From: a virus
UHGV virus genome: UHGV-0283667
Strand: one strand, 5' to 3'
DNA: 14,283 bases
Numbering within the stretch: position 1 is the first letter of the stretch; each line of letters begins with the position of its first letter. Below the pieces are notes generated by a model. That model did no database searches. It saw only the letters and a list, made by a program, of their open reading frames with translations, and was not told the origin of the DNA. Positions 494 through 14,283 of the stretch are shown here, piece after piece. A program made the translations under genes and the position numbers.

Positions 494-775
494 TTATTTC
501 AGGCATTGCGTCCTGATGTATTCCTGCAGGTAGTTAACCTGCGCGGTTATCTTGTCGATTCCACTTCGGAGACGGTAATAATTGAGTTCAGCATCTGCTG
601 TAAGTCCTGGGCTTTCTCCATCGCCCATGCCGCTGGCTCTGGTCGTTGATTTTGCACAGGTGGCGGCGACTTGCAGGCGCTTACGCCCAGAAGAAACATC
701 GTTTGAGGTTAAGCATCTGGCGCGCGGTAAGTGGTTGCGTTGAAATAAGAGCCAGTCCATTACAAATTTCATCAA
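494..775 (-). pseudogene. Rz (i-spanin) C-terminal portion encoded on the minus strand, fused to an unrelated 25-aa N-terminal leader
   Basis: From the arm at 700 downward the translation [66 protein letters not shown] matches the lambda Rz C-terminus, including the ...YI..QC end. The first 25 residues are not Rz-like, and the start is TTG/ATG with no clear RBS. Confidence 0.65.
641..700. repeat. Right arm of the 60-bp inverted repeat
   Basis: Reverse complement of 257-316 with two mismatches. Confidence 0.9.
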
Positions 776-2232: not shown

Positions 2233-3110
2233 GCCGGAAATCTTACCCCAACGTAAATGCAGCAAATCAGTATGCCCGGGATGTCGTGCGCGGAAAGATT
2301 GTTGCCTGCCAGTTTGTGATTCAGGCCTGCCAGCGCCATCTTGATGACCTGATGGCGGAAAAAAGTAAGTCGTTTCGTTACCGCTTCGACAAGGACCTGG
2401 CTGAACGGGCCGCCAAATTTATTCAGCTGTTGCCGCACACCAAGGGTGAGTGGGCATTTAAACGGATGCCCATCACGCTGGAGCCGTGGCAGCTATTTGT
2501 GATCTGCTGTGCGTTTGGCTGGGTCAATAAAGGCACCCGGTTGCGCCGCTTCCGGGAGGTGTATACCGAAATTCCCCGTAAGAACGGCAAATCGGCAATC
2601 TCTGCCGGTGTTGCCCTGTATTGTTTTGCCTGTGATAACGAGTTCGGCGCGGAAGTGTATTCCGGTGCCACGACGGAGAAACAGGCATGGGAAGTCTTTC
2701 GTCCGGCACGACTGATGTGTAAACGCACACCCATGCTGACGGAAGCGTTCGGGATTGAGGTTAACGCCTCAAACATGAACCGTCCGGAGGATGGTGCGCG
2801 GTTTGAACCGCTGATCGGTAACCCCGGTGATGGTTCATCACCCCACTGTGCCGTGGTGGATGAATATCACGAGCACGCCACAGATGCGCTTTACACCACG
2901 ATGCTTACCGGGATGGGGGCGCGACGCCAGCCACTGACCTCGAACTGCTCAAGAGTCAGTGATTTATCCTCGCAGCTCTGCCAGCTCACCAGGTTGAAAT
3001 ACGCCGAACGCGCCGACACCCAGATATTGAGGTGTTTTGTTTTAAAGACGTTTGCCAGACGGGCGTTATTTTTCGCACGTTGCTGCTGGCTTAACAAAAA
3101 CTCGCGATAA
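2229..3110 (+). CDS. Terminase large subunit, N-terminal ATPase part; family similarity ends near 2938 and the rest of the ORF is out-of-sense read-through
   Basis: Walker A-like IPRKNGKS and Walker B-like AVVDEYHEH, then ...[11 protein letters not shown]. From about 2939 the + frame reads junk ([13 protein letters not shown]...) to the stop at 3108-3110. Confidence 0.8.
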
Positions 3111-3200
3111 ACCGACACACCGATATTCGGGTTAGCTTTTTCAAGTACCTGCGGGTCGGTCCAGTCGTCGCCTTCGTCAACGGTATAGATGATCCTGGCC
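2939..3200 (-). other. Internal terminase large subunit segment in inverted orientation (sense on the minus strand)
   Basis: Minus-strand translation [87 protein letters not shown] carries the terminase signature DDW.DP...KANPN...FKTKHLN.W. It lies exactly between the N- and C-terminal + strand parts, which share one reading frame. Confidence 0.75.
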
Positions 3201-3749: not shown

Positions 3750-3829
3750 CTGAGGTAATTATGATCATGCTGATTCTCGCGCCTCTGGTAGGCGTGCTGG
3801 GGGCGCTTTTGCTGGCGTATGGTGTTCAG

Positions 3830-3937
3830 GCTGCCGTTCAGGTGATACAGATTGCAGGGCAACATCCCGACCGACTCTGCCAGCACCCTGACGCAGGAAA
3901 AAACCGCCGTCAGTCGCATGGCCCGCTGGCTGCTGAT
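3830..3937 (-). other. Portal protein N-terminal conserved segment in inverted orientation
   Basis: Minus-strand translation ISSQRAMRLTAVFSCVRVLAESVGMLPCNLYHLNGS matches the N-terminal conserved helix of HK97-family portals, but lies on the strand opposite the portal body. Confidence 0.65.
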
Positions 3938-3953
3938 CTGCTTTCCGGTATAG

Positions 3954-4814
3954 GTGTCATATGACACTGGCTGTGTGGTACCGAAGCTTAACAGTAGCTG
4001 GGAGCCGGTCTATCAGGTCACATTCCCGGACGGCTCCACGGATGTGCTGACCCAGGAGGATATCTGGCATGTGCGCACGCTGACGCTGGACGGTCTGGTG
4101 GGACTGAATCCCATCGCCTATGCCCGCGAGGCAATATCGCTGGCAGCAGCGACTGAAGAGCACGGTGCCAGACTGTTCAGCAATGGCGCGGTGACGTCCG
4201 GTGTGTTGCGTACAGAACAGACGCTGTCGGATCAGGCTTATGAGCGCCTGAAGAAAGATTTTGAGGAGCGTCACACCGGGCTTGGCAATGCTCACCGCCC
4301 GATGATCCTTGAGATGGGGCTGGACTGGAAGTCGATGGCGCTGAACGCCGAGGACAGCCAGTTCCTGGAAACCCGCAAGTTTCAGCTTGAAGAAATCTGT
4401 CGTCTGTTCCGTGTGCCCTTGCACATGGTGCAGAACACCGATCGCGCCACCTTCAACAATATCGAAGAGCTGGGGCTGGGATTTATCAACTATTCACTGG
4501 TGCCGTATCTGACCCGTATTGAGCAGCGGATCAACACCGGACTGGTACGAAAAAGTAAGCAGGGCGTTTATTACGCCAAATTTAACGCCGGGGCGTTACT
4601 GCGCGGGGATATGAAGTCCCGTTTTGAAGCCTACGCCACCGGGATCAACTGGGGAATTTACTCTCCCAATGACTGCCGCGACCTGGAAGATATGAATCCG
4701 CGTCCCGGTGGTGATGTCTATCTCACACCGATGAACATGACCACGAAACCCTCCGATGGTAGTAAAGCCGGTAAGCAGAAGGATAACGCCAATGCAGACG
4801 AAACAACGTCTTGA
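3954..4814 (+). CDS. Portal protein (HK97 family), body and C-terminus; N-terminal region missing from this strand
   Basis: ...EPVYQVTFPDGSTDVL...LVGLNPIAYAREAISLAAATEEHGARLFSNGAVTSGVL...FLETRKFQLEEICRLFRVPLHMVQ...GGDVYLTPMNM is portal-like. The ORF opens at GTG 3954 inside a 14-bp palindrome, with a frame-0 stop at 3951-3953 immediately upstream. Confidence 0.85.
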   Translation: MSYDTGCVVPKLNSSWEPVYQVTFPDGSTDVLTQEDIWHVRTLTLDGLVGLNPIAYAREAISLAAATEEHGARLFSNGAVTSGVLRTEQTLSDQAYERLKKDFEERHTGLGNAHRPMILEMGLDWKSMALNAEDSQFLETRKFQLEEICRLFRVPLHMVQNTDRATFNNIEELGLGFINYSLVPYLTRIEQRINTGLVRKSKQGVYYAKFNAGALLRGDMKSRFEAYATGINWGIYSPNDCRDLEDMNPRPGGDVYLTPMNMTTKPSDGSKAGKQKDNANADETTS

Positions 4815-5442
4815 TGTACCGCTGAGTCTGAAATCTGTCAGTGACTCCGGTGAGTTTGAAGGGTATGGCTCCGTCTTTGGTGTAAAGGACAGCCACGATG
4901 ATGTGGTGATGTCCGGGGCATTTGCTGCTTCCCTGCGGGCGTGGAGTGACAGAAAAACGTTACCTGCGCTGCTCTGGCAGCACCGCATGGATGAACCCAT
5001 CGGTGTTTACACCGAAATGAAGGAAGACGATGTCGGGCTTTACGTCAGGGGACGGTTGCTCATTGATGATGATCCCCTCGCAAAACGCGCACATGCACAC
5101 ATGAAGGCCGGTTCGTTAACCGGCCTTTCTATTGGGTACGTCCTGAAAGACTGGGAATACGACCGGAGCAAAGAAGCCTTTCTGTTGAAAGAAATCGACC
5201 TCTGGGAAGTCAGTCTGGTGACGTTCCCGTCTAACGACGAGGCGCGGATCAGCAACGTCAAGAACGCGCTGGCCCGCGGGGAAATCCCCGAACAGAAAAA
5301 AATCGAAAGAGTCCTGCGTGATGTCGGACTCTCCCGTACCCAGGCCAAAGCATTCATGGCCGGGGGCTATGGCGCACTGTCCCTGCGCGACGCTGAGGAT
5401 GTGGGCTCTGCACTGAATGCACTTAAAAATCTGAACTTCTAA
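4792..5442 (+). CDS. Prohead maturation protease (HK97 family)
   Basis: RBS AAGGA at 4779-4783, ATG at 4792 (track start 4756 has no RBS). Overlaps the portal 3' end. HK97-protease-like sequence. Confidence 0.85.
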   Translation: MQTKQRLDVPLSLKSVSDSGEFEGYGSVFGVKDSHDDVVMSGAFAASLRAWSDRKTLPALLWQHRMDEPIGVYTEMKEDDVGLYVRGRLLIDDDPLAKRAHAHMKAGSLTGLSIGYVLKDWEYDRSKEAFLLKEIDLWEVSLVTFPSNDEARISNVKNALARGEIPEQKKIERVLRDVGLSRTQAKAFMAGGYGALSLRDAEDVGSALNALKNLNF

Positions 5443-5456
5443 TCAGGAGAAATACG

Positions 5457-6662
5457 ATGGCGGTTGATATTAAAGATGTGGAACAGGTCGCGCAGGAGCT
5501 GCAGCAGAAGTTTGACGACTTCAGGGCAAAGAACGACAAGCGCGTGGATGCGATTGAGCAGGAAAAAGGCAAACTTGCCGGGCAGGTGGAAACCCTGAAC
5601 GGGAAACTCAGCGAGCTGGAAAATCTCAAAAGCGACCTTGAAAAAGAGCTGCTTGAGCTGAAACGTCCGGCAGGTGGTGCGCAAAATAAACTGGCCACAG
5701 AGCACAAAGAGGCGTTTGTGGGCTTTCTGCGTAAAGGCCGTGAAGACGGTCTGCGCGATCTGGAGCGCAAGGCATTGCAGGTGGGCACTGATGAAGACGG
5801 TGGCTATGCCGTGCCGGAAGCACTGGATCGCAACATTCTCACCCTGCTGAAAGATGAAGTGGTGATGCGCCAGGAAGCCACGGTGATCACTGTTGGCGGT
5901 TCCGACTACAAAAAACTGGTGAATCTGGGCGGCACGGCTTCCGGATGGGTGGGCGAGACTGACGCGCGCTCCCAGACTGCCACCTCAAAACTGGGACTGA
6001 TTGAACCTTTCATGGGGGAAATCTACGGTAACCCGCAGGCCACTCAGAAAATGCTGGATGATGCCTTCTTCAACGTGGAGGCCTGGATCAACAGCGAGCT
6101 GGCGACCGAATTTGCCGAACAGGAAGAAATTGCCTTTACCACCGGTGATGGCACTAAGAAGCCAAAAGGGTTCCTGGCGTATGAATCCACCGATGAAACC
6201 GATAAGGTTCGTGCGTTCGGTAAACTTCAGCATATTGTATCCGGTGAAGCGACGACGGTGACCGCAGACGCCATTATCAAACTGATTTACACGCTGCGTA
6301 AGGCACACCGCACTGGCGCGAAGTTCATGATGAACAACAACAGCCTGTTTGCCATCCGTCTGCTGAAAGACACCGAGGGTAACTATCTGTGGCGTCCGGG
6401 GCTGGAGCTGGGGCAACCGTCCTCTCTGGCGGGTTACGGTATCGCTGAAAACGAACAGATGCCGGATATCGCCGCTGATGCGAAAGCTATTGCATTTGGT
6501 AACTTCAAACGGGGTTACACCATCGTTGACCGTATCGGTACCCGCATTCTGCGTGATCCGTACACCAATAAACCGTTTGTCGGTTTTTATACCACCAAGC
6601 GCACCGGCGGCATGCTGGTCGATTCGCAGGCCATCAAACTGCTGAAGATTGCAGCGGCGTAG
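5457..6662 (+). CDS. Major capsid protein (HK97 fold) with N-terminal coiled-coil delta/scaffold domain
   Basis: RBS AGGAG at 5443-5447. The first ~100 aa are a charged coiled coil (KLSELENLKSDLEKELLELK), followed by a capsid domain of HK97-like length (401 aa total). Confidence 0.9.
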   Translation: MAVDIKDVEQVAQELQQKFDDFRAKNDKRVDAIEQEKGKLAGQVETLNGKLSELENLKSDLEKELLELKRPAGGAQNKLATEHKEAFVGFLRKGREDGLRDLERKALQVGTDEDGGYAVPEALDRNILTLLKDEVVMRQEATVITVGGSDYKKLVNLGGTASGWVGETDARSQTATSKLGLIEPFMGEIYGNPQATQKMLDDAFFNVEAWINSELATEFAEQEEIAFTTGDGTKKPKGFLAYESTDETDKVRAFGKLQHIVSGEATTVTADAIIKLIYTLRKAHRTGAKFMMNNNSLFAIRLLKDTEGNYLWRPGLELGQPSSLAGYGIAENEQMPDIAADAKAIAFGNFKRGYTIVDRIGTRILRDPYTNKPFVGFYTTKRTGGMLVDSQAIKLLKIAAA

Positions 6663-6670
6663 TCATTCAG

Positions 6671-6688
6671 GGGCGCTGAATTGCGCCC
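6671..6688 (+). terminator. GC-rich stem-loop directly after the major capsid gene; possible partial terminator or mRNA stabiliser
   Basis: GGGCGC-TGAATT-GCGCCC, followed by TTGTTCT (weak U tract). Confidence 0.35.
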
Positions 6689-6711
6689 TTGTTCTGACAG
6701 GTGAAAGAATC

Positions 6712-6900
6712 ATGATCCTGAAACAAGATCTGAAATGGTCACCGGACGGTATGCGCGTTGAGATCATTCGTGCTGGTGAGTATGAAGATAAAGAATTACC
6801 CGAACGGGTACGTGAAATTGCCACTGCAGCAGGGATTGTTTCTGATAAGAGAACACCTGTTGCACGGGTATCTGATAAGGCTAAAAAACAGCATTCATAG
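6712..6900 (+). CDS. Hypothetical small protein (62 aa) between capsid and connector genes
   Basis: ATG at 6712 in frame with track ORF 6649..6900. Hydrophilic, no recognisable family. Lower GC than neighbours. Confidence 0.45.
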   Translation: MILKQDLKWSPDGMRVEIIRAGEYEDKELPERVREIATAAGIVSDKRTPVARVSDKAKKQHS

Positions 6901-6911
6901 AGGTAGCCCAA

Positions 6912-7217
6912 ATGATGCCTACTCTGGAAGAGCTTCGTGTTCAGTGCCGGATTGATGATGACAATGAACAGGAGAATGCACTTCTTATGATGTATCTGGC
7001 AGCAGCCAGAGAAGAGGCTGAAAAGTTTTTAAACCGGACACTTCACGATGAAACTGTTCCTGATCAGGATACGACCGGGCTTGTAATAACACCACTGATA
7101 AAGTTGCGTCTTATGCAACTGGTTGGCTACTGGTACGAGAACAGGGAAATGCAGGATGCTGTACCTGATTTTTTCTATACCGGACTCCGAATGTATCGGT
7201 TTCATCCCGGAACATAG
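6912..7217 (+). CDS. Head-tail connector protein (gp6-like)
   Basis: N-terminal pattern M.PTLEELRVQCRIDDD...ALL..YLAAAREE typical of gp6-like connector proteins. Size 101 aa and position after the capsid gene fit. Confidence 0.7.
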   Translation: MMPTLEELRVQCRIDDDNEQENALLMMYLAAAREEAEKFLNRTLHDETVPDQDTTGLVITPLIKLRLMQLVGYWYENREMQDAVPDFFYTGLRMYRFHPGT

Positions 7218-7226
7218 GAGGATTTC

Positions 7227-7565
7227 ATGCAGGCAGGAAGATTACGTGATCGCGTGGTTATTCTGAATATTACGACCTCCCGTACCCCTTCCGGTCACCC
7301 GGAGGAAACCCTGAAAGAGGGGGCTACGGTATGGGCAGAGGTTAAGGGGATCAGTGGGCGGGAACGTATATCGGGCGGTGCGGAAACCGCGCAGACAACA
7401 GTAAGAGTCTGGATGCGATTTCGGCGCGATGTGACGGCCGCCTCACGTCTGAAAGTGCTGACCGGGGCATTCAAGGGAGCCATTCTGAATATCGACGGGC
7501 CGCCGATCCCGGACGCACGATCCTCCAGGCTTGAAATACTTTGCAGCCAGAGAGGTGGAATGTGA
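7227..7565 (+). CDS. Head closure / head-tail adaptor protein
   Basis: RBS AGGAGG 7 nt upstream of ATG 7227. N-terminal MQAGRLRDRVVI motif typical of the head-tail joining family. 112 aa. Confidence 0.7.
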   Translation: MQAGRLRDRVVILNITTSRTPSGHPEETLKEGATVWAEVKGISGRERISGGAETAQTTVRVWMRFRRDVTAASRLKVLTGAFKGAILNIDGPPIPDARSSRLEILCSQRGGM

Positions 7566-8011
7566 CGGATTTTAGTCTGGATTTTTCTGGCCTGGCGGAT
7601 ATTGCAAGAGATCTGGAACTTCTCAGCAGAGCAGAGAGTAATAAGGTGCTTCGCGATGCCTCCCGTGCCGGTGCAGAGGTTATCCGGGAGGCGGTTATTG
7701 ATCATGCGCCAGAGCGAACCGGAAAACTGAAGAAAAACGTGGTTATTCTGACTCAGCGTTCACGGCGTCGTGGTGAAATTATCTCTGGTGTCCACATTCG
7801 TGGGCGGAATCTGCGAACCGGAAACAGTGATAACAGCATGAAAGCCAGCGATCCGCGAAACGCGTTTTACTGGCGTTTCGTGGAGCTGGGGACTATCAAT
7901 ATGCCTGCCCATCCGTTCATTCGCCCGGCCTTTGATACGACAGAGGAGCTGGCAGCACAGGTTGCCATGAAGCATATGAATCAGGCTATTGATGGGGTGC
8001 TGAGTAAATGA
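7562..8011 (+). CDS. Tail component, HK97 gp10-like family
   Basis: Likely GTG start at 7562 after RBS AGAGGTGG (track start is TTG 7541). Motifs ...IDHAPERTGKL... and ...FYWRFVELGT...PAHPFIRPAFD resemble the gp10 family. Confidence 0.65.
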   Translation: MTDFSLDFSGLADIARDLELLSRAESNKVLRDASRAGAEVIREAVIDHAPERTGKLKKNVVILTQRSRRRGEIISGVHIRGRNLRTGNSDNSMKASDPRNAFYWRFVELGTINMPAHPFIRPAFDTTEELAAQVAMKHMNQAIDGVLSK

Positions 8012-8352
8012 GAGAAGCCACGCTGTATGCTCTTCTGTCCCAACTGGCCGGAGGGCAGGTTTATCCTTATGTGGTCCCGCTGACGGAGGGAAAGCCTGCG
8101 GTATCTCCACCATGGCTGGTGTTTTCAGTGGTGTCTGACATCGCGTCTGATGTGCTTGATGGTCAGGCTGAATCCAGAATTACCGTGCAGATTGATATCT
8201 GGGCAACGGCTCCTGATGACGCAGATGATATCCGTGAGCAGGCGCTTGATGCGGTAAGGGAACTGGCACCATCCGTTATTTCTAAAACTCAGGGTTATGA
8301 TCCTGATTCCCGTCTGAGCAGAGCTACGCTTGAATTTCAGGTAATAGCCTGA
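8008..8352 (+). CDS. Tail completion protein (DUF3168-like)
   Basis: ATGA start/stop overlap with the upstream gene. N-terminal ...LYALL...VYPYVVP... pattern. 114 aa. Confidence 0.55.
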   Translation: MREATLYALLSQLAGGQVYPYVVPLTEGKPAVSPPWLVFSVVSDIASDVLDGQAESRITVQIDIWATAPDDADDIREQALDAVRELAPSVISKTQGYDPDSRLSRATLEFQVIA

Positions 8353-8373
8353 GGTCGTTAATGATTTTACCCA

Positions 8374-8394
8374 CCCGCCGCTGGCGGGTTTTTT
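8374..8394 (+). terminator. Intrinsic terminator-like hairpin immediately upstream of the major tail protein gene
   Basis: CCCGCC-GCT-GGCGGG followed by TTTTTT. Confidence 0.6.
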
Positions 8395-8411
8395 ATTTTC
8401 AGGAGACGAGT

Positions 8412-9116
8412 ATGTCCTCTAATTTTGAACGTTCTCAGCAGACCAAAGTCATGATCTCGTCTGCACCGGTAACGGCAGAAACGCTGAGTTCTGCCAGTTT
8501 TCTTGAACTGAGCTGTACGATTAAAGAGGTTCAGTTTACCGCCGGGCAGAAACAGGATATTGATGTCACTACGCTGTGTTCTACCGAGCAGGAGAATATC
8601 AACGGTCTTGGGGCTGCTTCAGAGATTTCCATGTCAGGAAACTTTTATCTCAACTCTGCCCAGAACGCGTTGCGTAGTGCTTATGACAACGACACCACAT
8701 ACGGTTTCAAAGTTATTTTCCCGTCAGGAAATGGATTTACTTTTATGGCAGAAGTTCGCCAGCATACCTGGTCTGTGGGAACCAACGGTGTTGTTGCTGC
8801 CACATTTTCCCTGCGCCTGAAAGGAAAGCCCTCTCTGACCACTGAACCTTTGAAACTCCTCTCTGATTTGAAAAGTACACTACAGGTTTCTGCCAGTGAA
8901 ACGCTGAATATGTCTGTTGAGGCATCAGGTGGTGTGCCTCCTTATTCATATGTCTGGAAGAAAGGCAGCTCTCCAGTTTCCGGGCAGACATCGGCAACTT
9001 TCAACAAGGCCTCCGTGACATCCGGAGATGCCGGTGCGTATACCTGTGAGGTTTCTGATTCAGCAAGCCCGATTAATAAGGTGACCTCCACTTCCTGCAC
9101 CGTAACTGTCAGTTAA
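8412..9116 (+). CDS. Major tail protein with C-terminal Ig-like domain
   Basis: RBS AGGAG 6 nt upstream of ATG 8412 (track start 8361 lies inside the terminator). The C-terminal ~85 aa look like a Big_2/Ig-like domain. Confidence 0.8.
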   Translation: MSSNFERSQQTKVMISSAPVTAETLSSASFLELSCTIKEVQFTAGQKQDIDVTTLCSTEQENINGLGAASEISMSGNFYLNSAQNALRSAYDNDTTYGFKVIFPSGNGFTFMAEVRQHTWSVGTNGVVAATFSLRLKGKPSLTTEPLKLLSDLKSTLQVSASETLNMSVEASGGVPPYSYVWKKGSSPVSGQTSATFNKASVTSGDAGAYTCEVSDSASPINKVTSTSCTVTVS

Positions 9117-9130
9117 GGAGGATGAAATCT

Positions 9131-9502
9131 ATGTCTAAAAATATCCGCAATCTGGCACTGGCGACGATGTCTGGTTTTCGCCACAAAACAGTTGATGTTC
9201 CTGAGTGGGAAGGTACAACGGTTGTATTACGGGAACCCTCTGCAGAAGCCTGGTTACGTTGGCAGGAGATCGTTAAAACCGGAGATGATGATACACCGTT
9301 ATCAGTTGCGGAGCGTGCCCGCCGAAATCTGGAAGCGGATGTTGAACTGTTCATCGATGTTCTGTGTGATACCGGGATGCAACCCGTGTTTTCAGCGGAT
9401 GATCGGGAGCAGGTACTTGCAGTATATGGTCCGGTACATGCGCGACTGCTTCGTCAGTCACTGGAACTGATCACTGATGCTGAAGTTATTAAAAAAAAGT
9501 AG
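9131..9502 (+). CDS. Tail assembly chaperone (gpG-like)
   Basis: RBS AAGGAGG at 9115-9121, ATG at 9131. Acidic ~124-aa protein directly upstream of the tape measure gene, ending in a slippery A-run. Confidence 0.75.
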   Translation: MSKNIRNLALATMSGFRHKTVDVPEWEGTTVVLREPSAEAWLRWQEIVKTGDDDTPLSVAERARRNLEADVELFIDVLCDTGMQPVFSADDREQVLAVYGPVHARLLRQSLELITDAEVIKKK

Positions 9503-9804
9503 CACTTCCGGGTATTCGTTTTCTGATGATGCTGGCGCTCAGGATGGGGCGCACATTGTCAGAGTTACGCCGGGAAATGTCTGCATCGGAAATCATGATG
9601 TGGGCAGAATTTGACAGGATCAGCCCGCTGGGTGACGAGCGGGCTGATATCCGGGCTGCCCAGATAGTTTCTGCAGTTTACGGGGCGCAGGGTGTCAAAG
9701 TTCCACTGAATGAAGCGATTCTTCAGTGGGAGGTCGTTCCTGCAAATAATATTAAAGATCCGTTCACAGCGTTTGAAAATGCATTATTTGCAGCGACACA
9801 ATGA
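9131..9804 (+). CDS. Tail assembly chaperone frameshift fusion product (gpGT-like) by -1 ribosomal frameshift at 9493-9499
   Basis: The -1 frame is open from 9493 through the stop at 9802-9804. The slippery run sits just before the G stop at 9500-9502. Confidence 0.65.
9491..9499 (+). promoter_or_regulatory. Programmed -1 frameshift slippery site (A AAA AAG)
   Basis: Heptamer A-AAA-AAG at 9493-9499 within the run AAAAAAAAG (9491-9499). Confidence 0.65.
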
Positions 9805-9814
9805 TCTTCTTACT

Positions 9815-9844
9815 TTACTGGATTATGATTCCGATTTTTATTAA
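9815..9844 (+). promoter_or_regulatory. Candidate sigma-70 promoter for the downstream moron
   Basis: TTACTG (9815-9820), 18-bp spacer, TATTAA (9839-9844), in an AT-rich intergenic stretch. Confidence 0.3.
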
Positions 9845-9862
9845 GTAAATAAGGAGATATTG

Positions 9863-10204
9863 ATGGAAGTTATTCTTATTGCGCTAGTCCTGGGGTTAAT
9901 TCCGGCTATTATCGCGCAAAGTAAAGGGCGTTCATTTTGGGGATGGTGGATATACGGAGCCTTACTCTTTATCGTTGCCTTGGTTCATTCACTTGTAATC
10001 CAAAAAGATGAAAAAACGCATGAGCAACAAATGGTGAGCAATGGCATGAAAAAATGCCCTTACTGTGCGGAGTTGATCAAAGAAGAAGCCATTAAGTGTA
10101 AGCATTGCGGTAGTGATTTAACACATAACCCTGATAGTACCGTTTCGCAAAAAACGGATGATGAATATCTTGAAGAAGCAAGGCGTAAGGCTGGGCTTCT
10201 TTAA
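9863..10204 (+). CDS. Moron: small membrane protein with two predicted TM helices and a C-terminal zinc-ribbon (CPYC...CKHC)
   Basis: RBS AAGGAG at 9851-9856, ATG at 9863. Two hydrophobic stretches, then CPYC-x13-CKHC. AT-rich codon usage unlike flanking tail genes. Own terminator downstream. Confidence 0.7.
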   Translation: MEVILIALVLGLIPAIIAQSKGRSFWGWWIYGALLFIVALVHSLVIQKDEKTHEQQMVSNGMKKCPYCAELIKEEAIKCKHCGSDLTHNPDSTVSQKTDDEYLEEARRKAGLL

Positions 10205-10209
10205 AAGCA

Positions 10210-10234
10210 AAAACCGCTTCGGCGGTTTTTTTTT
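10210..10234 (+). terminator. Rho-independent terminator (A-tract upstream, so possibly bidirectional)
   Basis: AAAACCGC-TTCG-GCGGTTTT followed by a T9 run. Confidence 0.75.
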
Positions 10235-10249
10235 GCCTGGAGAACGAGA

Positions 10250-13200
10250 ATGGCGTCACTACGCGAACTGATTATAAAAATCTCGGCAAATTCGCAGTCA
10301 TTCCAGTCAGAAATTGCGCGAGCTTCACGTATGGGACAGGAGTACTACCGTACCATGCAGAACGGAGGTCGACAGTCTGCAGCTGCATCCCGTGATATGC
10401 GGCGAGCACTGGCAGAAGTGACCGAGCAGATAAATACGGCGAAGTCTTCGGCAATGAATATGGCTGGCGCATTTGCCGGTGCTTTTGCCACTGGACATCT
10501 TATATCTCTTGCGGATGAATGGAGCTCAGTAAATGCCCGTTTGAAGCAGGCCACGCAGTCCAGCGATGATTTCCAGGCATCACAGCGCGAATTAATGGCG
10601 ATCAGCCAGAGAACGGGTACTGCTTTTGCTGATAACGCCAGTCTTTTTGCACGTTCGGCTTCTTCCATGCGGGAATATGGTTACAGGTCTGAGGAAGTAC
10701 TGAAAGTTACCGAGGCCATTTCTACAGGATTGAAATTGTCCGGAGCCAGTTCTGCGGAAGCCAGCTCGGTGATCACTCAGTTCAGCCAGGCACTGGCGCA
10801 AGGGGTTCTGCGCGGTGAAGAGTTTAATTCAGTAAATGAAAGCGGTGATCGTGTTATTCGTGCTCTGGCTGCAGGAATGGGGGTTGCCCGTAAAGATCTG
10901 AAGGCAATGGCGGATGATGGAAAGCTGACCGCCGATAAGGTTGTTCCTGCACTGATTAGCCAGCTTGGTACGCTGCGGGATGAATATGCAGCCATGCCTG
11001 ATACCGTATCATCCTCTGCAACCAAAGTTGAAAACGCCTTTATGGCCTGGGTTGGTGGTGCGAATGATGCCAGCGGTGCAACGAAAACGCTTACCGGAAT
11101 AATGAATGGTGTTGCGAATAATATTGATACGGTTGCCACGGCGGCGGGAGCTCTGGTTGCAATTGGTGTAGCCCGATATTTTGGCAATATGGCGTCTTCT
11201 GCGGGCTCTGCAACTGCCGGGTTAATCACTGTTGCCAGAAACGAAGTGGCTCTTGCTGAGGCACAGCTCAGAGGGACACAGATAGCAACAGCCAGAGCGC
11301 GGGCGGCATTGTATCGTGCGCAGCAGGCGGTTGTGGCTGCCCGTGGTACAGAAAAACAGGCTGCAGCAGAAGCGAAACTGGCAACCGCACAGGCTTCACT
11401 TACCCGTAATATTGCTGCCAGAACAGCGGCACAGGCAACGCTGAATAACGTTACGTCAGTTAGTAGTCGGTTGTTAAGCGGTGCTCTGGGGCTGGTTGGT
11501 GGTGTGCCTGGACTTGTCATGCTGGGGGCGGCGGCCTGGTACACAATGTATCAGAACCAGGAGCAGGCCAGAGAATCAGCGCGTCAGTATGCCGCAACAA
11601 TCGACGAAATTCGCCAGAAAACGTCTGCAATGTCACTTCCTGAAGCGGCAGATAATGAAGAAAAGACGCGGCAGGCTCTGGAGGAGCAGAACAGGTTAAT
11701 TGACGAGCAGAAAAGTAAGATTAAATCCTTACAGGAAAAAATTGCTGGCTATCAGTATGTCCTGGCAAACCCGGGCTGGACAACCGATAACGGTTTTATG
11801 ATTAACCACATGACGTCGGTGAAAACTGTCACAGAAGGGCTTGCAGAAGCAACAAGTCAGCTGGCTGTTGAGCAGTCCCGACTTTCCGGAATGCAGGAAA
11901 AAGCCCAGTCAATCCAGGATGTGCTTGCCGGGCTGGAAGAACGACGAGTGGTGCTGATCCGCCAACAGGCAGCGGAACAAAACAAAGCATATCAGTCATT
12001 ACTGATCATGAATGGCCAACATACCGAGTTTAATCGTCTTCTTGGGCTTGGTAATGAATTACTTCAGCAGCGACAGGGGCTGGTGAATGTACCGTTACGG
12101 CTGCCACAGGCTGCTCTGGATGATAAACAGCAGAACGCGCTGAATAACACTGAGCGAGAGCTGACCTTATCCCGTATGAAGGGGGAAGCGCGTGAGCGTA
12201 CTCGTCTGGGCTATGTAGCGGATGATCTCGGTTTTGTGGGGGATGCCTATCAGACGGCAAGGCAAACTTATATCAACAACGCGCTGGAAGCATGGCGTAA
12301 CAACCAGGCGAATAAGCCAAAGGTACGTGGTGGAAAATCGGAAGCAGAAAAAACGGAAGATGCTTATAACAGACTGATTAAACAACAAAAAGAACAAATA
12401 GCACTGGCAGGACAGAATACTGAACTGGCTAAGATGAAATACCAGGTCAGCCAGGGCGAATTATCAACCTTATCAGAAGCGCAGAAACAAACCCTTTTAC
12501 AGAATGCAGCACTCATCGACCAGAAAAAAATTCGTGAGCAAATTGCTGCTTATGAAAGCAGCCTGGCGGACAGTAACGCCAGTGTCAGGGCATCAAATGA
12601 GGCTCAGTTGTTAGGGTATGGAGACGGAACACGAATACGTGAGCGGCTTCAGGAAATGTGGAACATCCGACAGGAGTTTGAGCAGAAAAATAATGAGTTG
12701 CTGAGACAGTACCAGACCGGAGAAATCGAAGAAGCCCTGTGGAAACAGGAAAAAACGCTGAATGAAAAATATCTGGAGGAGCGTCTCAACGATCAGCAGG
12801 ATTATTATGCAAAGGCCGATGCTTTACGCAGTAACTGGAATGCTGGGCTCAAAGAGGGGCTGACGAACTGGGCAGACAGTGCCACTGATTATGCTTCACA
12901 AGCGGCAGATGCGGTCGTTTCCACTATGGATGGTCTGGTTTCAAATATTTCCGAGGCACTGGCCGGAAACGTTGTGGACTGGAGAAACTGGGGGAGTTCG
13001 ATCCTTCAGGAAGTTTCAAAAATCCTGATGAACGCGGCCATTGTTAACGGGCTGAAATCACTCTCCGGGACAATGTCGGGAGCGGGGGGATGGATTGGTA
13101 GTGTTGGCGACTGGCTTTCCGGTGCAGTAGCGAACGCAAAAGGCGGTGTTTACACATCGGCAAATCTGAGTGCTTACAGTAACACCATTGTGGATACGCC

Positions 13201-13492
13201 GACGTACTTTGCTTTTGCGAAAGGTGCCGGGCTGATGGGGGAAGCCGGACCTGAAGCTATCATGCCGCTTACGCGGGCGGCGGACGGTTCTCTTGGGGTC
13301 AGGGCTATTGGCAATGTGAATGGTGGTGGCGGATTTGTCTATTCTCCCGTGTATCACATCAATATTCAGAATAAAGGGAGCAATGGCGAGATTGATACGC
13401 AGTCAGCCAGGGGGCTGGTGGATCTGATCGACAGCAGGGTTGTGTCAATTATGCAGTCATCACGTCGGGACGGAGGATTATGCAGTGCCTGA
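10250..13492 (+). CDS. Tail tape measure protein (1080 aa)
   Basis: RBS GGAGA 6 nt upstream of ATG 10250. Long Ala/Gln-rich helical protein immediately after the G/GT chaperone genes. Confidence 0.92.
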   Translation: MASLRELIIKISANSQSFQSEIARASRMGQEYYRTMQNGGRQSAAASRDMRRALAEVTEQINTAKSSAMNMAGAFAGAFATGHLISLADEWSSVNARLKQATQSSDDFQASQRELMAISQRTGTAFADNASLFARSASSMREYGYRSEEVLKVTEAISTGLKLSGASSAEASSVITQFSQALAQGVLRGEEFNSVNESGDRVIRALAAGMGVARKDLKAMADDGKLTADKVVPALISQLGTLRDEYAAMPDTVSSSATKVENAFMAWVGGANDASGATKTLTGIMNGVANNIDTVATAAGALVAIGVARYFGNMASSAGSATAGLITVARNEVALAEAQLRGTQIATARARAALYRAQQAVVAARGTEKQAAAEAKLATAQASLTRNIAARTAAQATLNNVTSVSSRLLSGALGLVGGVPGLVMLGAAAWYTMYQNQEQARESARQYAATIDEIRQKTSAMSLPEAADNEEKTRQALEEQNRLIDEQKSKIKSLQEKIAGYQYVLANPGWTTDNGFMINHMTSVKTVTEGLAEATSQLAVEQSRLSGMQEKAQSIQDVLAGLEERRVVLIRQQAAEQNKAYQSLLIMNGQHTEFNRLLGLGNELLQQRQGLVNVPLRLPQAALDDKQQNALNNTERELTLSRMKGEARERTRLGYVADDLGFVGDAYQTARQTYINNALEAWRNNQANKPKVRGGKSEAEKTEDAYNRLIKQQKEQIALAGQNTELAKMKYQVSQGELSTLSEAQKQTLLQNAALIDQKKIREQIAAYESSLADSNASVRASNEAQLLGYGDGTRIRERLQEMWNIRQEFEQKNNELLRQYQTGEIEEALWKQEKTLNEKYLEERLNDQQDYYAKADALRSNWNAGLKEGLTNWADSATDYASQAADAVVSTMDGLVSNISEALAGNVVDWRNWGSSILQEVSKILMNAAIVNGLKSLSGTMSGAGGWIGSVGDWLSGAVANAKGGVYTSANLSAYSNTIVDTPTYFAFAKGAGLMGEAGPEAIMPLTRAADGSLGVRAIGNVNGGGGFVYSPVYHINIQNKGSNGEIDTQSARGLVDLIDSRVVSIMQSSRRDGGLCSA

Positions 13493-13826
13493 ACCTGAAG
13501 CTTTTAACTGGATCCCCCGCGAGGGGATGGAGACGACACGAAAGCCATCTGTTATTACGGTAAAGTTCGGTGACGGATATGAACAGCGACGGGCTGGTGG
13601 TCTGAATGCGGATCTGAAAACGTTTAAACCGGTATTTCGGGTCACAGATGAATATTCCCGCGCTGCGCTGGACAGTTTTTTATCCCGTCATGCCGGGATG
13701 CGTGCTTTTTTGTGGCGTCCGCCAAAATACAACAGGACCGTCCGGGTTGTCTGCAGGGAGTGGAGTATTTCGGATAATGCCATGTATACCGATTTTAACT
13801 GTACCTTTGAAGAGGTCACTCACTGA
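13485..13826 (+). CDS. Minor tail protein M (lambda gpM-like)
   Basis: Likely GTG start at 13485 after RBS GGAGGA, overlapping the tape measure 3' end (track start is TTG 13440). ...VKFGDGYEQRRAGGLNADLKTFKPVF...FLWRPP... matches lambda M. Confidence 0.85.
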   Translation: MPEPEAFNWIPREGMETTRKPSVITVKFGDGYEQRRAGGLNADLKTFKPVFRVTDEYSRAALDSFLSRHAGMRAFLWRPPKYNRTVRVVCREWSISDNAMYTDFNCTFEEVTH

Positions 13827-14218
13827 TGCAGGATATACAGCAGGAAACACTGAATGAGTGTACAAAATCGGAGCAATCCGCGCTGGTCGTGCTCTGGGAA
13901 GTCGATCTGACAGAGGTCGGCGGAGAGCGTTATTTTTTCTGTAATGAGCAGAACGAAAAAGGTGAGTCGGTCACCTGGCAGGGGCGACAGTATCAGGCGT
14001 ACCCTATTCAGGGAAGCGGCTTTGAGATGAACGGCAAAGGAGCCAGTGCAAGACCAACGCTGAAAGTCTCTAACCTGCACGGCATGGTCACCGGGATGGC
14101 GGAAGACCTGCAGAGTCTGGTCGGCGGAAAGGTAGTCAGGCGTAAGGTTTGCCAAAGTTGCCGACGTTATTGCGAAACTTACAGCCACTCAGGCATTTGC
14201 TGCATTTATCCTTCGTGA
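13826..14218 (+). CDS. Minor tail protein L (lambda gpL-like), N-terminal 108 aa; family similarity ends at 14149
   Basis: MQDIQQETLNECTKSEQSALVVLWEVDLTEVGGERYFFCNEQNEKGE.VTWQGRQYQ.YPIQGSGFE.NGKG...VVRRKV is nearly identical in pattern to lambda L. From 14150 the frame reads non-L sequence. Start overlaps the M stop. Confidence 0.85.
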   Translation: MQDIQQETLNECTKSEQSALVVLWEVDLTEVGGERYFFCNEQNEKGESVTWQGRQYQAYPIQGSGFEMNGKGASARPTLKVSNLHGMVTGMAEDLQSLVGGKVVRRKVCQSCRRYCETYSHSGICCIYPS

Positions 14219-14283
14219 TATCGGACGTCGGCTGGTCATATTCATCCGCGACAGCCGGACCGCTATAACCGCACTCATCACCG
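14150..14283 (-). other. Minor tail protein L C-terminal region in inverted orientation; continues beyond the window end
   Basis: Minus-strand translation GDECGYSGPAVADEYDQPTSDITKDKCSKCLSGCKFRNNVGNFG matches the Cys-rich C-terminal region of lambda L. Confidence 0.75.

What the first reader, a model, noticed from the sequence alone, without database searches (positions are those of the whole stretch)
9805..10249. Moron inserted between the G/GT chaperone and tape measure genes: membrane-anchored zinc-ribbon protein with its own promoter and terminator
The normally tight G/GT-to-tape-measure junction is interrupted by a 445-bp AT-rich cassette. It has a candidate sigma-70 promoter (TTACTG, 18 bp, TATTAA), a strong RBS, a 113-aa ORF and a strong terminator (T9). 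The protein has two hydrophobic helices (VILIALVLGLIPAIIA and IYGALLFIVALVHSLVI) and a C-terminal zinc-ribbon CPYC-x13-CKHC. Independent expression signals suggest it is made in the lysogen. Small membrane proteins at such positions are candidates for superinfection exclusion, abortive infection or other host-conversion functions, and I do not recognise a characterised family.
Basis: partly seen in the sequence, partly recalled or inferred. Interest (0 to 1): 0.7.

Follow-up and report, generated by a model that had tools for sequence, protein, structure and literature searches.

The report
Tail-operon moron: membrane zinc-ribbon protein
An HK97-like E. coli prophage carries an extra, self-expressed gene in the slot where phage HK97 keeps its superinfection-exclusion gene; it encodes an uncharacterised but widespread small membrane protein with a zinc ribbon that most likely stops other phages from injecting their DNA.

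Summary
The ORF is real: ATG 9863 to stop 10204, 113 aa, with two TM helices and a Zn_ribbon_3 domain. It is under strong purifying selection (dN/dS 0.08). It sits in a ~400-bp AT-rich insert (39% vs 51% GC) between tail chaperone T and the tape measure gene. Most related E. coli prophages lack the insert: 44 of 904 genomes carry it. This is the same junction as the HK97 gp15 moron, a known superinfection-exclusion gene, but the two proteins are unrelated in sequence.

- The proposed promoter is not conserved. The conserved one is ATGATC-17-TATGAT (9801-9829), overlapping the T stop codon, and was found in 50/50 distinct homologous upstream regions.
- The terminator is real but also present at empty junctions.
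- The ribbon is CPYC-x10-CKHC, not x13.

All 80 closest viral-contig homologs occupy this junction. More distant homologs sit at other prophage accessory sites. A Pseudomonas phage carries, at the same junction, a T4-Imm-type domain (PF14373) fused to the same zinc ribbon.

Best reading: a prophage-expressed inner-membrane protein that blocks tape-measure-dependent DNA injection. This function is inferred, not shown. It is a new variant of a known kind.

The parts
9122..9502 (+). Tail assembly chaperone G (context); slippery A-run at 9491-9499 for the G/GT frameshift
   Evidence: Pfam Phage_TAC_1, E 3e-57; sequence AAAAAAAAG followed by TAG
9526..9804 (+). T part of the GT chaperone (context). 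Its last ~24 codons (about 9731-9804) diverge from insert-less relatives and travel with the insert.
   Evidence: Pfam Phage_tail_T, E 2e-17; alignment with phage Evi
9801..9806 (+). Candidate -35 hexamer ATGATC; contains the T stop codon TGA (9802-9804)
   Evidence: Pattern [GTA]TGA[CT]N, 17 nt (16 in one sequence), TA[GTA][GTA]AT present in 50/50 distinct upstream regions, with variable spacer sequences
9824..9829 (+). Candidate -10 hexamer TATGAT, 17 nt after the -35 and ending 33 nt before the ATG
   Evidence: conserved position, 27-34 nt before the ATG. TAGGAT in most relatives, TATTAT in the second E. coli allele.
9851..9856 (+). Shine-Dalgarno AAGGAG, 6 nt before the ATG
   Evidence: Sequence
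9863..10204 (+). Moron ORF, 113 aa plus stop; annotated elsewhere only as 'zinc ribbon domain-containing protein' (WP_021543566.1)
   Evidence: dN/dS 0.08
9866..9997 (+). Two-helix membrane hairpin (aa 2-21 and 25-45) with near-invariant motif G-x-IPAxIA-x-SKGRSF-xx-WW-x-YG...A..H
   Evidence: AlphaFold2 helices, pLDDT 81-92. Invariant columns. The hairpin-only profile finds 2,670 cluster representatives.
10046..10120 (+). Zinc ribbon CPYC-x10-CKHC (aa 62-86)
   Evidence: Pfam Zn_ribbon_3, 34.6 bits. Four invariant Cys. Foldseek best local fits are RanBP2/NZF-type ribbons, rmsd about 1.2 A.
10157..10189 (+). C-terminal acidic/basic helix (TDDEYLEEARRKAGLL), conserved only in the 113-aa subfamily found at this junction
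   Evidence: weak matches to the C-termini of PHROGs 19323 and 5031
10209..10234 (+). Intrinsic terminator: A5-CCGC-UUCG-GCGG-T9. Shared with insert-less junctions.
   Evidence: Compensatory stem variants across homologous loci. Identical hairpin in Evi without the ORF.
10250..13492 (+). Tape measure protein (context and proposed class of target); 55% identical to HK97 gp16
   Evidence: Pfam TMP_3, Phage_HK97_TLTM, Tape_meas_lam_C; BLASTP

Best explanation
The segment is a moron: an accessory cassette dropped into the T-to-tape-measure junction of an HK97-like E. coli prophage.

Proposed expression: a weak sigma-70 promoter overlapping the T stop codon transcribes one gene in the lysogen. A terminator just before the tape measure gene stops that transcript. 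Late antiterminated transcription would read through it.

The product: a small inner-membrane protein consisting of a two-helix hairpin with an invariant KGRSF..WW turn, a Cys4 zinc ribbon and a short charged tail.

Most likely function: superinfection exclusion. It would sit in the inner membrane and prevent incoming siphophages from forming or using the tape-measure-dependent DNA channel, as HK97 gp15 and T4 Imm do.

Shown here: the insertion, the conserved signals, the domain architecture, purifying selection and the recurrent genomic position.

Inferred: expression in the lysogen, membrane topology (N-in/C-in with a cytoplasmic ribbon is favoured at roughly 65%), and the exclusion activity itself.
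For: 1. The position matches HK97 gp15 exactly. HK97 gp15 is an inner-membrane protein expressed from the prophage that blocks genome entry in a tail-dependent way (PMC3594210).

2. The junction is polymorphic. 44 of 904 E. coli genomes with a related junction carry the insert; the sampled others are about 400 bp shorter.

3. All 80 closest IMG/VR loci have the order T, this ORF, tape measure. ORF identity is 66-100% while tape measure identity is only 37-100%. Salmonella phage FSL SP-016 and Cronobacter prophages show the same order.

4. The promoter geometry is conserved in 50/50 distinct upstream sequences despite divergent spacers. Mean best promoter score is 10.0 against 6.4 +/- 2.3 in shuffles. 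The terminator stems vary in a compensatory way.

5. Pseudomonas phage YMC11/02/R656 gp065 lies between the tail chaperones and the tape measure gene. It combines PF14373 Imm_superinfect (E 1.6e-18) with a zinc ribbon homologous to ours (hhalign E 1e-25). T4 Imm is itself a PF14373 member. A 2026 preprint reports that T4 Imm binds the T4 tape measure protein to block genome translocation (10.64898/2026.03.06.709160).

6. Imm-plus-ribbon relatives occupy classical lysogen-expressed sites: next to the CI-type repressor, next to the integrase, or at a prophage end.

7. More distant hairpin-ribbon homologs sit at other tail-operon junctions (L|K, K|I, after the tail fibre). That argues against a fixed structural role.

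8. dN/dS is 0.08.
Against: - There are no expression or phenotype data.
- No hit to any PADLOC defence model beyond zinc-ribbon noise.
- No sequence similarity to gp15.
- The hairpin does not match PF14373 by hmmscan. The hairpin-only profile comparison is weak: probability 23%, P 9e-4, 20 columns.
- The link to Imm therefore rests mainly on the shared ribbon, shared architecture and shared locus.
- Identical ORF alleles sit next to tape measure proteins only 56-60% identical. Any specificity for the neighbouring tape measure protein is therefore loose.
- The window's -35 hexamer is poor (3/6).
- Topology clues from multi-domain relatives conflict.
- Some homologs lie outside recognisable prophage tail modules.
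Confidence: 0.5

Rival explanations
1. It is a prophage defence gene that acts after injection rather than by blocking entry. One form would be an abortive-infection or membrane-perturbing effector triggered by infection. Another would be a membrane-anchored factor that recognises tape measure protein in the cytoplasm, either Tab-like (blocking tail assembly) or SNIPE-like (positioned at the injection site).
For: It has the same moron features and the same tail-module association as the best explanation. [quoted passage not shown] SNIPE shows that membrane proteins with cytoplasmic domains act at the tape measure channel (PMC13190303). A cytoplasmic zinc ribbon could be the sensing or binding module.
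Against: No enzymatic or pore-forming domain is present in 113 aa. There is no PADLOC match. The closest functional analogues by locus (gp15) and by architecture (Imm-ribbon) are entry blockers.
Confidence: 0.15
2. It is a lysogenic-conversion gene unrelated to phage defence. It would change envelope physiology, stress or antibiotic tolerance, or host interaction in the lysogen.
For: Many morons do this, for example lom and bor (PMC3594210). The hairpin family is large, with 2,670 cluster representatives, and occurs with varied C-terminal domains and in some non-phage contexts. There is a weak NCBIfam similarity of the ribbon to TcaA.
Against: 80/80 close homologs sit beside the tape measure gene, and more distant ones sit inside tail operons or other prophage accessory slots. 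The sister architecture carries a domain named after T4 Imm. The TcaA hit is far below its cutoff: 19.7 bits against 550.
Confidence: 0.15
3. It serves the phage's own lytic cycle and is read as part of the late tail operon. Possible roles: helping tape measure or tail assembly at the membrane, tuning lysis, or preventing released progeny from injecting into already infected or lysing cells.
For: It is co-oriented within the late operon, so antiterminated late transcription must also express it. It is present in an isolated phage, FSL SP-016. The position next to the tape measure gene is strongly conserved.
Against: Most closely related prophages and phages lack it, so it is dispensable for virion production. 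It has its own conserved promoter. The family occurs at several unrelated junctions.
Confidence: 0.12
4. It is a chance ORF or a decaying remnant with no function.
For: One homologous locus (L061) has a premature stop.
Against: 1,761 homologs, about 20 invariant residues including four Cys, and dN/dS 0.08.
Confidence: 0.01

Closest known systems
HK97 gp15 moron (superinfection exclusion; YebO-like)
   Same: Identical genomic slot between G/GT and the tape measure gene of an HK97-type tail operon. Small inner-membrane protein. AT-rich cassette followed by a hairpin-plus-T-run terminator. Similar promoter geometry (TTCACA-17-TACGCT). A similar leader, TTAAGTAAAGGAGG against TTAAGTAAATAAGGAG.
   Different: No sequence similarity. 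gp15 is 62 aa with one hydrophobic helix and no zinc ribbon. Ours is 113 aa with a two-helix hairpin and a Cys4 ribbon.
T4 Imm / Pfam PF14373 Imm_superinfect
   Same: Small inner-membrane protein. The first helix ends in (L/I)P-x-x-IA, followed by a basic turn and then a Trp/Gly-rich helix. The full-length profile alignment to Imm-ribbon proteins is colinear. T4 Imm blocks DNA translocation and is reported to bind the tape measure protein.
   Different: Our protein does not reach PF14373 in hmmscan. The hairpin is about 10 residues shorter. The hairpin-only profile match is weak at 23% probability. T4 Imm has no zinc ribbon.
Imm_superinfect + Zn_ribbon_3 fusion proteins (e.g. Pseudomonas phage YMC11/02/R656 gp065, annotated 'immunity to superinfection')
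   Same: Same order of parts: membrane hairpin, linker, CPYCAE..I...A.KC..CG ribbon. The ribbons are homologous, E 1e-25. gp065 sits at the same chaperone-to-tape-measure junction. The others sit at prophage accessory sites.
   Different: The membrane domain is a bona fide PF14373 domain, whereas ours is a distinct KGRSF-WW hairpin family. The function of these fusions is also untested.
P22 SieA and other prophage inner-membrane injection blockers
   Same: Prophage-expressed inner-membrane proteins that stop DNA entry without touching the outer-membrane receptor (PMC3594210; PMC10883804, listed).
   Different: Unrelated in sequence and size. Encoded in the immunity region, not in the tail operon.
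SNIPE (membrane-bound nuclease acting at the injection site)
   Same: A membrane anchor plus a cytoplasmic domain, positioned where the tape measure protein brings DNA across the inner membrane.
   Different: SNIPE has DUF4041 and a GIY-YIG nuclease. Ours has only a 25-residue zinc ribbon and no catalytic domain.

Membership tests
Moron (Juhala/Hendrix sense) | Extra DNA absent from otherwise colinear relatives | tested here: met
   About 400 bp is absent in phage Evi and 8 other phages. Only 44 of 904 E. coli genomes with a related junction carry it.
Moron (Juhala/Hendrix sense) | Base composition differs from neighbouring genes | tested here: met
   GC 0.393 against 0.50-0.51 in the flanks
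Moron (Juhala/Hendrix sense) | Own promoter | tested here: inconclusive
   Conserved -35/17/-10 geometry in 50/50 distinct upstream regions. The window's -35 is weak and no transcript was mapped.
Moron (Juhala/Hendrix sense) | Own terminator | tested here: met
   Hairpin plus T9 at 10209-10234, with compensatory variants in relatives. Caveat: the same hairpin exists at empty junctions.
Moron (Juhala/Hendrix sense) | Expressed from the repressed prophage | not testable with these tools
   Needs RNA-seq, 5'-RACE or a reporter in a lysogen
HK97 gp15 / YebO family | Sequence similarity to gp15 | tested here: not met
   BLASTP E = 5, with 4 aligned residues
HK97 gp15 / YebO family | Location between GT and the tape measure gene | tested here: met
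Pfam PF14373 Imm_superinfect (T4 Imm family) | Match to the family HMM above the gathering score | tested here: not met
   No PF14373 hit at E <= 10. T4 Imm and YMC gp065 do match.
Pfam PF14373 Imm_superinfect (T4 Imm family) | Remote homology of the membrane hairpin by profile-profile comparison | tested here: inconclusive
   Hairpin only: probability 22.7%, P 9e-4, 20 columns. The full-length alignment is colinear but is driven by the ribbon.
Pfam PF13248 Zn_ribbon_3 | HMM match above the gathering score; four Cys ligands | tested here: met
   34.6 bits against a cutoff of 27, aa 62-86. C65, C68, C79 and C82 are invariant.
PHROG 8436 (unknown function) | Full-length HMM match | tested here: met
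   E 3.2e-51, aa 1-111 against profile positions 1-108 of 110
Known anti-phage defence systems (PADLOC-DB v2) | Match to any defence-protein model | tested here: not met
   Only two weak hits that cover the ribbon: HEase at 5e-5 and LmuB at 3e-3
Superinfection exclusion protein (functional class) | Blocks infection at DNA entry without blocking adsorption | not testable with these tools
   Requires plating-efficiency, adsorption and DNA-entry assays

The most novel reading that the evidence does not exclude
The protein belongs to a very large, unnamed family of membrane hairpins with a KGRSF-WW turn: 2,670 clusters at 50% identity. In this reading the hairpin is a minimal, portable Imm-like module for binding tape measure protein, usually coupled to a conserved zinc ribbon.

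The T-to-tape-measure junction of HK97-like phages would then be a fixed expression socket. A promoter overlaps the T stop codon and a resident terminator follows. Unrelated injection blockers are swapped into it: the gp15/YebO type, the hairpin-ribbon type, and the Imm-ribbon type in Pseudomonas.

If so, this would be a third, widespread class of tape-measure-directed superinfection-exclusion proteins, and the role of the zinc ribbon would be a new mechanistic question.
Probability: 0.35. Interest if true: 0.7.

Novelty: new variant of a known kind. Interest (0 to 1): 0.55.

Why it matters
Blocking DNA injection at the inner membrane is one of the least understood layers of phage resistance, and only a few such proteins have been studied (T4 Imm, HK97 gp15, P22 SieA).

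This cassette points to an uncharacterised family that is common in prophages of Enterobacteriaceae and beyond. It occupies the classic gp15 slot, and it shares a zinc-ribbon module with Imm-type proteins found at the same slot in Pseudomonas phages.

Testing it would be cheap: one 113-aa gene and standard coliphages. The results could:
- show how tape measure proteins are recognised;
- reveal what a zinc ribbon contributes to exclusion;
- explain host-range gaps of siphophages on clinical E. coli lineages that carry the prophage.

Tried and rejected
It was not detected by the scan and is not conserved in relatives.
- **TTGAAA-18-CACAAT (9773-9802).** This is the highest-scoring promoter-like site in the window. 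It lies in T coding sequence and is the best site only in this allele, so I keep it only as a possible second promoter.
- **Similarity to HK97 gp15.** None.
- **PADLOC and NCBIfam.** Nothing relevant.
- **Rfam on the whole window.** No match.
- **Foldseek against PDB.** Only generic RanBP2/NZF-type ribbons, E >= 0.1.
- **Literature searches** combining zinc ribbon, superinfection exclusion, tape measure and moron. No paper found. The primary gp15 paper (PMC3430355) was not available.
- **Co-variation of this ORF with the neighbouring tape measure protein.** Only moderate, r = 0.54. Identical ORFs sit next to tape measure proteins 56-60% identical. This is not informative about specificity.
- **Membrane topology from multi-domain relatives.** The clues conflict. 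P0302 and P0314 (soluble N-terminal extensions) and P0385 and P0325 (ribbon, then a third TM helix, then SH3 or OB domain) favour N-in with a cytoplasmic ribbon. P0243 and P0374 suggest the opposite.
- **Minus-strand ORF 10092-10259 (55 aa).** No support for it.

Full report
**What is in the sequence**

Between the stop of the T frame of the tail chaperone (TGA 9802-9804) and the start of the tape measure gene (ATG 10250) lies one ORF. It runs from ATG 9863 to stop 10204 and encodes 113 aa. It is preceded by AAGGAG six bases upstream. It is followed by A5-CCGC-UUCG-GCGG-T9 at 10209-10234.

Pfam confirms the neighbouring genes:
- Phage_TAC_1 for G.
- Phage_tail_T for T.
- TMP_3, Phage_HK97_TLTM and Tape_meas_lam_C for the 1,080-aa downstream protein.

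An A-run slippery site lies at 9491-9499. GC is 0.393 in 9805-10209 against 0.50-0.51 on both sides.

The protein has two predicted helices, at aa 2-21 and 25-45, with pLDDT 81-92. It has a Zn_ribbon_3 domain at aa 62-86 scoring 34.6 bits against a cutoff of 27.

**It is an insertion and a minority allele**

The window is an HK97-like E. coli prophage. The region matches strain 1517k at 100%, where the ORF is annotated only as "zinc ribbon domain-containing protein". The tape measure protein is 55% identical to HK97 gp16.

Phage Evi and eight other E. coli phages align on both flanks but lack about 400 bp. Among complete E. coli genomes, 904 of 5,426 have a related junction, and only 44 of them carry the insert. 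The sampled remainder span about 900 bp instead of 1,301 bp. The insert itself is in 43 genomes as two alleles, one at 99% or more and one at about 83% identity, and always between T and the tape measure gene.

- Divergence from Evi begins inside T at about 9731.
- The terminator hairpin is present, base for base, in Evi between T and the tape measure gene. It therefore belongs to the junction, not to the cargo.

**It is a real, constrained gene**

The protein has 1,761 homologs at E <= 1e-3 and matches PHROG 8436 (unknown function) over its full length. About 20 columns are invariant across 54 diverse members: G11, P14, A18, K21, G22, F25, W28, W29, Y31, G32, A39, H42, E54, K64, the four Cys, E70 and A76. 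Between the two E. coli alleles dS is 0.91 and dN/dS is 0.08.

**Expression signals**

I compared the upstream regions of the window, 80 viral-contig homologs and Salmonella phage FSL SP-016. This gave 50 distinct sequences. Every one contains [G/T/A]TGA[C/T]N, a 17-nt spacer (16 nt in one), and TA[G/T/A][G/T/A]AT, ending 27-34 nt before the ATG. The spacer sequences differ freely. Mean best promoter score is 10.0 against 6.4 +/- 2.3 for shuffles.

In the window this element is ATGATC (9801-9806, containing the T stop codon), a spacer at 9807-9823, and TATGAT (9824-9829). In most relatives it is GTGAC(A/T)-17-TAGGAT. This phylogenetic footprint is good in-silico evidence for an autonomous promoter, but no transcript was mapped.

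A second candidate, TTGAAA-18-CACAAT (9773-9802), scores slightly higher in this allele only and lies in coding sequence.

Downstream, every homologous locus has a GC hairpin plus T-run just before the tape measure start. The stems vary in a compensatory way: CCGC/GCGG, CCCCGC/GCGGGG, CCTCAC/GTGAGG.

**Where the family lives**

All 80 best IMG/VR loci (ORF 66-100% identical) have the order T, ORF, tape measure, with gaps of 55-157 nt and 48-64 nt. Their tape measure proteins are only 37-100% identical to the window's. At least 575 viral contigs carry a relative. The same arrangement is found in Salmonella phage FSL SP-016 and in Cronobacter prophages.

Longer family members (173-178 aa) sit at other accessory positions:
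- Between L and K in Edwardsiella.
- Between K and I in Serratia.
- After the tail spike in Enterobacter.
- Near an integrase in a Desulfobaccales element.
- In a degraded non-phage island in Pantoea.

A gene that appears at many junctions, and is absent from most close relatives, is cargo rather than a tail component.

A profile of the hairpin alone finds 2,670 cluster representatives at E <= 1e-3, of which 1,309 reach E <= 1e-10. Of the top 150, 119 show the strict hairpin motif, and 73% of those are followed by a CxxC...CxxC ribbon.

**The link to known superinfection exclusion**

First, the slot is the one occupied by the original moron, HK97 gene 15. Its 62-aa inner-membrane product is expressed from the prophage and blocks genome entry of HK97 and HK75 in a way that depends on the phage tail (PMC3594210). 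The two proteins share no sequence similarity. The cassettes do share promoter geometry (TTCACA-17-TACGCT in HK97) and a similar leader.

Second, Pseudomonas phage YMC11/02/R656 gp065 lies between the tail chaperone ORFs and the tape measure gene. It combines a bona fide Imm_superinfect domain (PF14373, E 1.6e-18) with a ribbon, RPCPYCAEMIKCAAIKCRYCG, that is homologous to ours at hhalign E 1e-25. Another Pseudomonas phage, vB_PaeS-D14Q, has an unannotated hairpin-ribbon ORF just upstream of its tape measure gene.

The Imm_superinfect plus Zn_ribbon_3 combination is a recurrent architecture. It is found next to CI-type repressors, next to integrases and at prophage ends.

T4 Imm is a PF14373 member. 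A 2026 preprint reports that it binds the T4 tape measure protein and blocks the translocation channel, with R33 and W50 important for activity.

Our hairpin is not a PF14373 member by hmmscan. The hairpin-only profile comparison is weak: 23% probability, P 9e-4. However, the two align colinearly: (I/L)PAxIA, then a basic turn, then a Trp/Gly-rich helix. I therefore say that the protein has the architecture and genomic habits of the Imm-ribbon proteins. I do not say that it belongs to the Imm family.

**Proposed mechanism**

In the lysogen, the weak promoter makes a short mRNA that ends at the junction terminator. The protein inserts in the inner membrane. When a related siphophage adsorbs, the protein interferes with the tape-measure-dependent step that opens a DNA path across the inner membrane.

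Topology is unresolved:
- The Cys4 ribbon, relatives with long soluble N-terminal extensions lacking signal peptides (P0302, P0314), and relatives in which the ribbon is followed by a third TM helix and an SH3 or OB domain (P0385, P0325) all favour N-in/C-in. In that arrangement the invariant KGRSF-WW turn faces the periplasm and the ribbon faces the cytoplasm.
- P0243 and P0374, and the positive charges in the turn, point the other way.

Under the favoured topology, the periplasmic aromatic/basic turn would meet the incoming tape measure protein. The cytoplasmic ribbon would oligomerise, or bind the emerging tape measure protein or a host factor. All of this is inference.

**Rivals**

- A post-entry defence: abortive infection, Tab-like blocking of tail assembly or SNIPE-like positioning at the injection site.
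- Lysogenic conversion unrelated to phages.
- A lytic-cycle accessory role.

None of these is excluded. The accessory distribution and the own promoter argue against a structural role. The absence of any catalytic or pore-forming domain argues against most abortive-infection models.

**Novelty**

The cassette type and its position are textbook. The protein family is unnamed and untested. Its relationship to Imm-ribbon fusions at the same junction in another genus appears not to have been described in the searchable literature. I rate it a new variant of a known kind, of moderate interest and easy to test.

**Caveat about the window**

Only 3967-14150 is colinear with the closest genome. Several short segments to the left, and the last 133 nt, are inverted or flanked by deletions relative to strain 1517k. 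No complete E. coli genome shares that arrangement. The finding lies well inside the intact block.

Noticed in passing
window 501-700, 2938-3195, 3825-3966, 14151-14283: These segments match the closest genome (E. coli 1517k prophage) in inverted orientation, with 100-200 bp of that genome missing beside them. This breaks the terminase large subunit and portal reading frames. None of 1,595 E. coli genomes with matches shares the arrangement. It could be a degraded prophage, an assembly artefact or a scrambled sequence.
   Followed up: partly
L001 (phage Evi) 2005-2046; window 10209-10234: Insert-less relatives keep the same terminator hairpin (AACCGCTTCGGCGGTTTTTTTT) between T and the tape measure gene. 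Either an intrinsic terminator is a standing feature inside this late operon, or these phages lost a cargo gene and kept the empty socket.
   Followed up: partly
L003 (HK97) 1140-1203 vs window 9805-9862: The HK97 gp15 cassette and this one share promoter spacing and a similar leader (TTAAGTAAAGGAGG vs TTAAGTAAATAAGGAG), although the ORFs are unrelated. This suggests cargo swapping within a common expression context.
   Followed up: partly
L009 3021-3437 (Pseudomonas phage vB_PaeS-D14Q); L115 1324-1632 (Sphingomonas): A SmpA/OmlA (BamE-like) lipoprotein gene lies immediately upstream of the hairpin-ribbon ORF in D14Q, and upstream of an Imm-ribbon gene in a Sphingomonas contig. This may be a two-gene module pairing an outer-membrane lipoprotein with an inner-membrane protein.
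   Followed up: no
L009 3501-3782: A 94-aa hairpin-plus-zinc-ribbon ORF upstream of the tape measure gene is unannotated in the deposited record. A small minus-strand ORF is annotated there instead.
   Followed up: partly
window 10157-10201 (aa 99-113): The C-terminal tail TDDEYLEEARRKAGLL is conserved only in the 113-aa subfamily found at the T-to-tape-measure junction. It gives weak matches to the extreme C-termini of two other PHROGs of unknown function (19323, 5031). It may be a shared short interaction motif.
   Followed up: no
L061 ~6001-6339: One homologous viral contig carries a premature stop in the ORF while its tape measure protein is over 99% identical to neighbours with an intact ORF. 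This looks like a recent inactivation.
   Followed up: no
window 9491-9499: The G/GT programmed frameshift site is an unusually long A-run (AAAAAAAAG) directly before the G stop codon.
   Followed up: no
L008 2644-3269 (Pseudomonas phage YMC11/02/R656): Two small ORFs (106 and 75 aa) upstream of gp065 are annotated as 'tail length tape measure protein'. By position and size they are probably the tail assembly chaperone pair.
   Followed up: no
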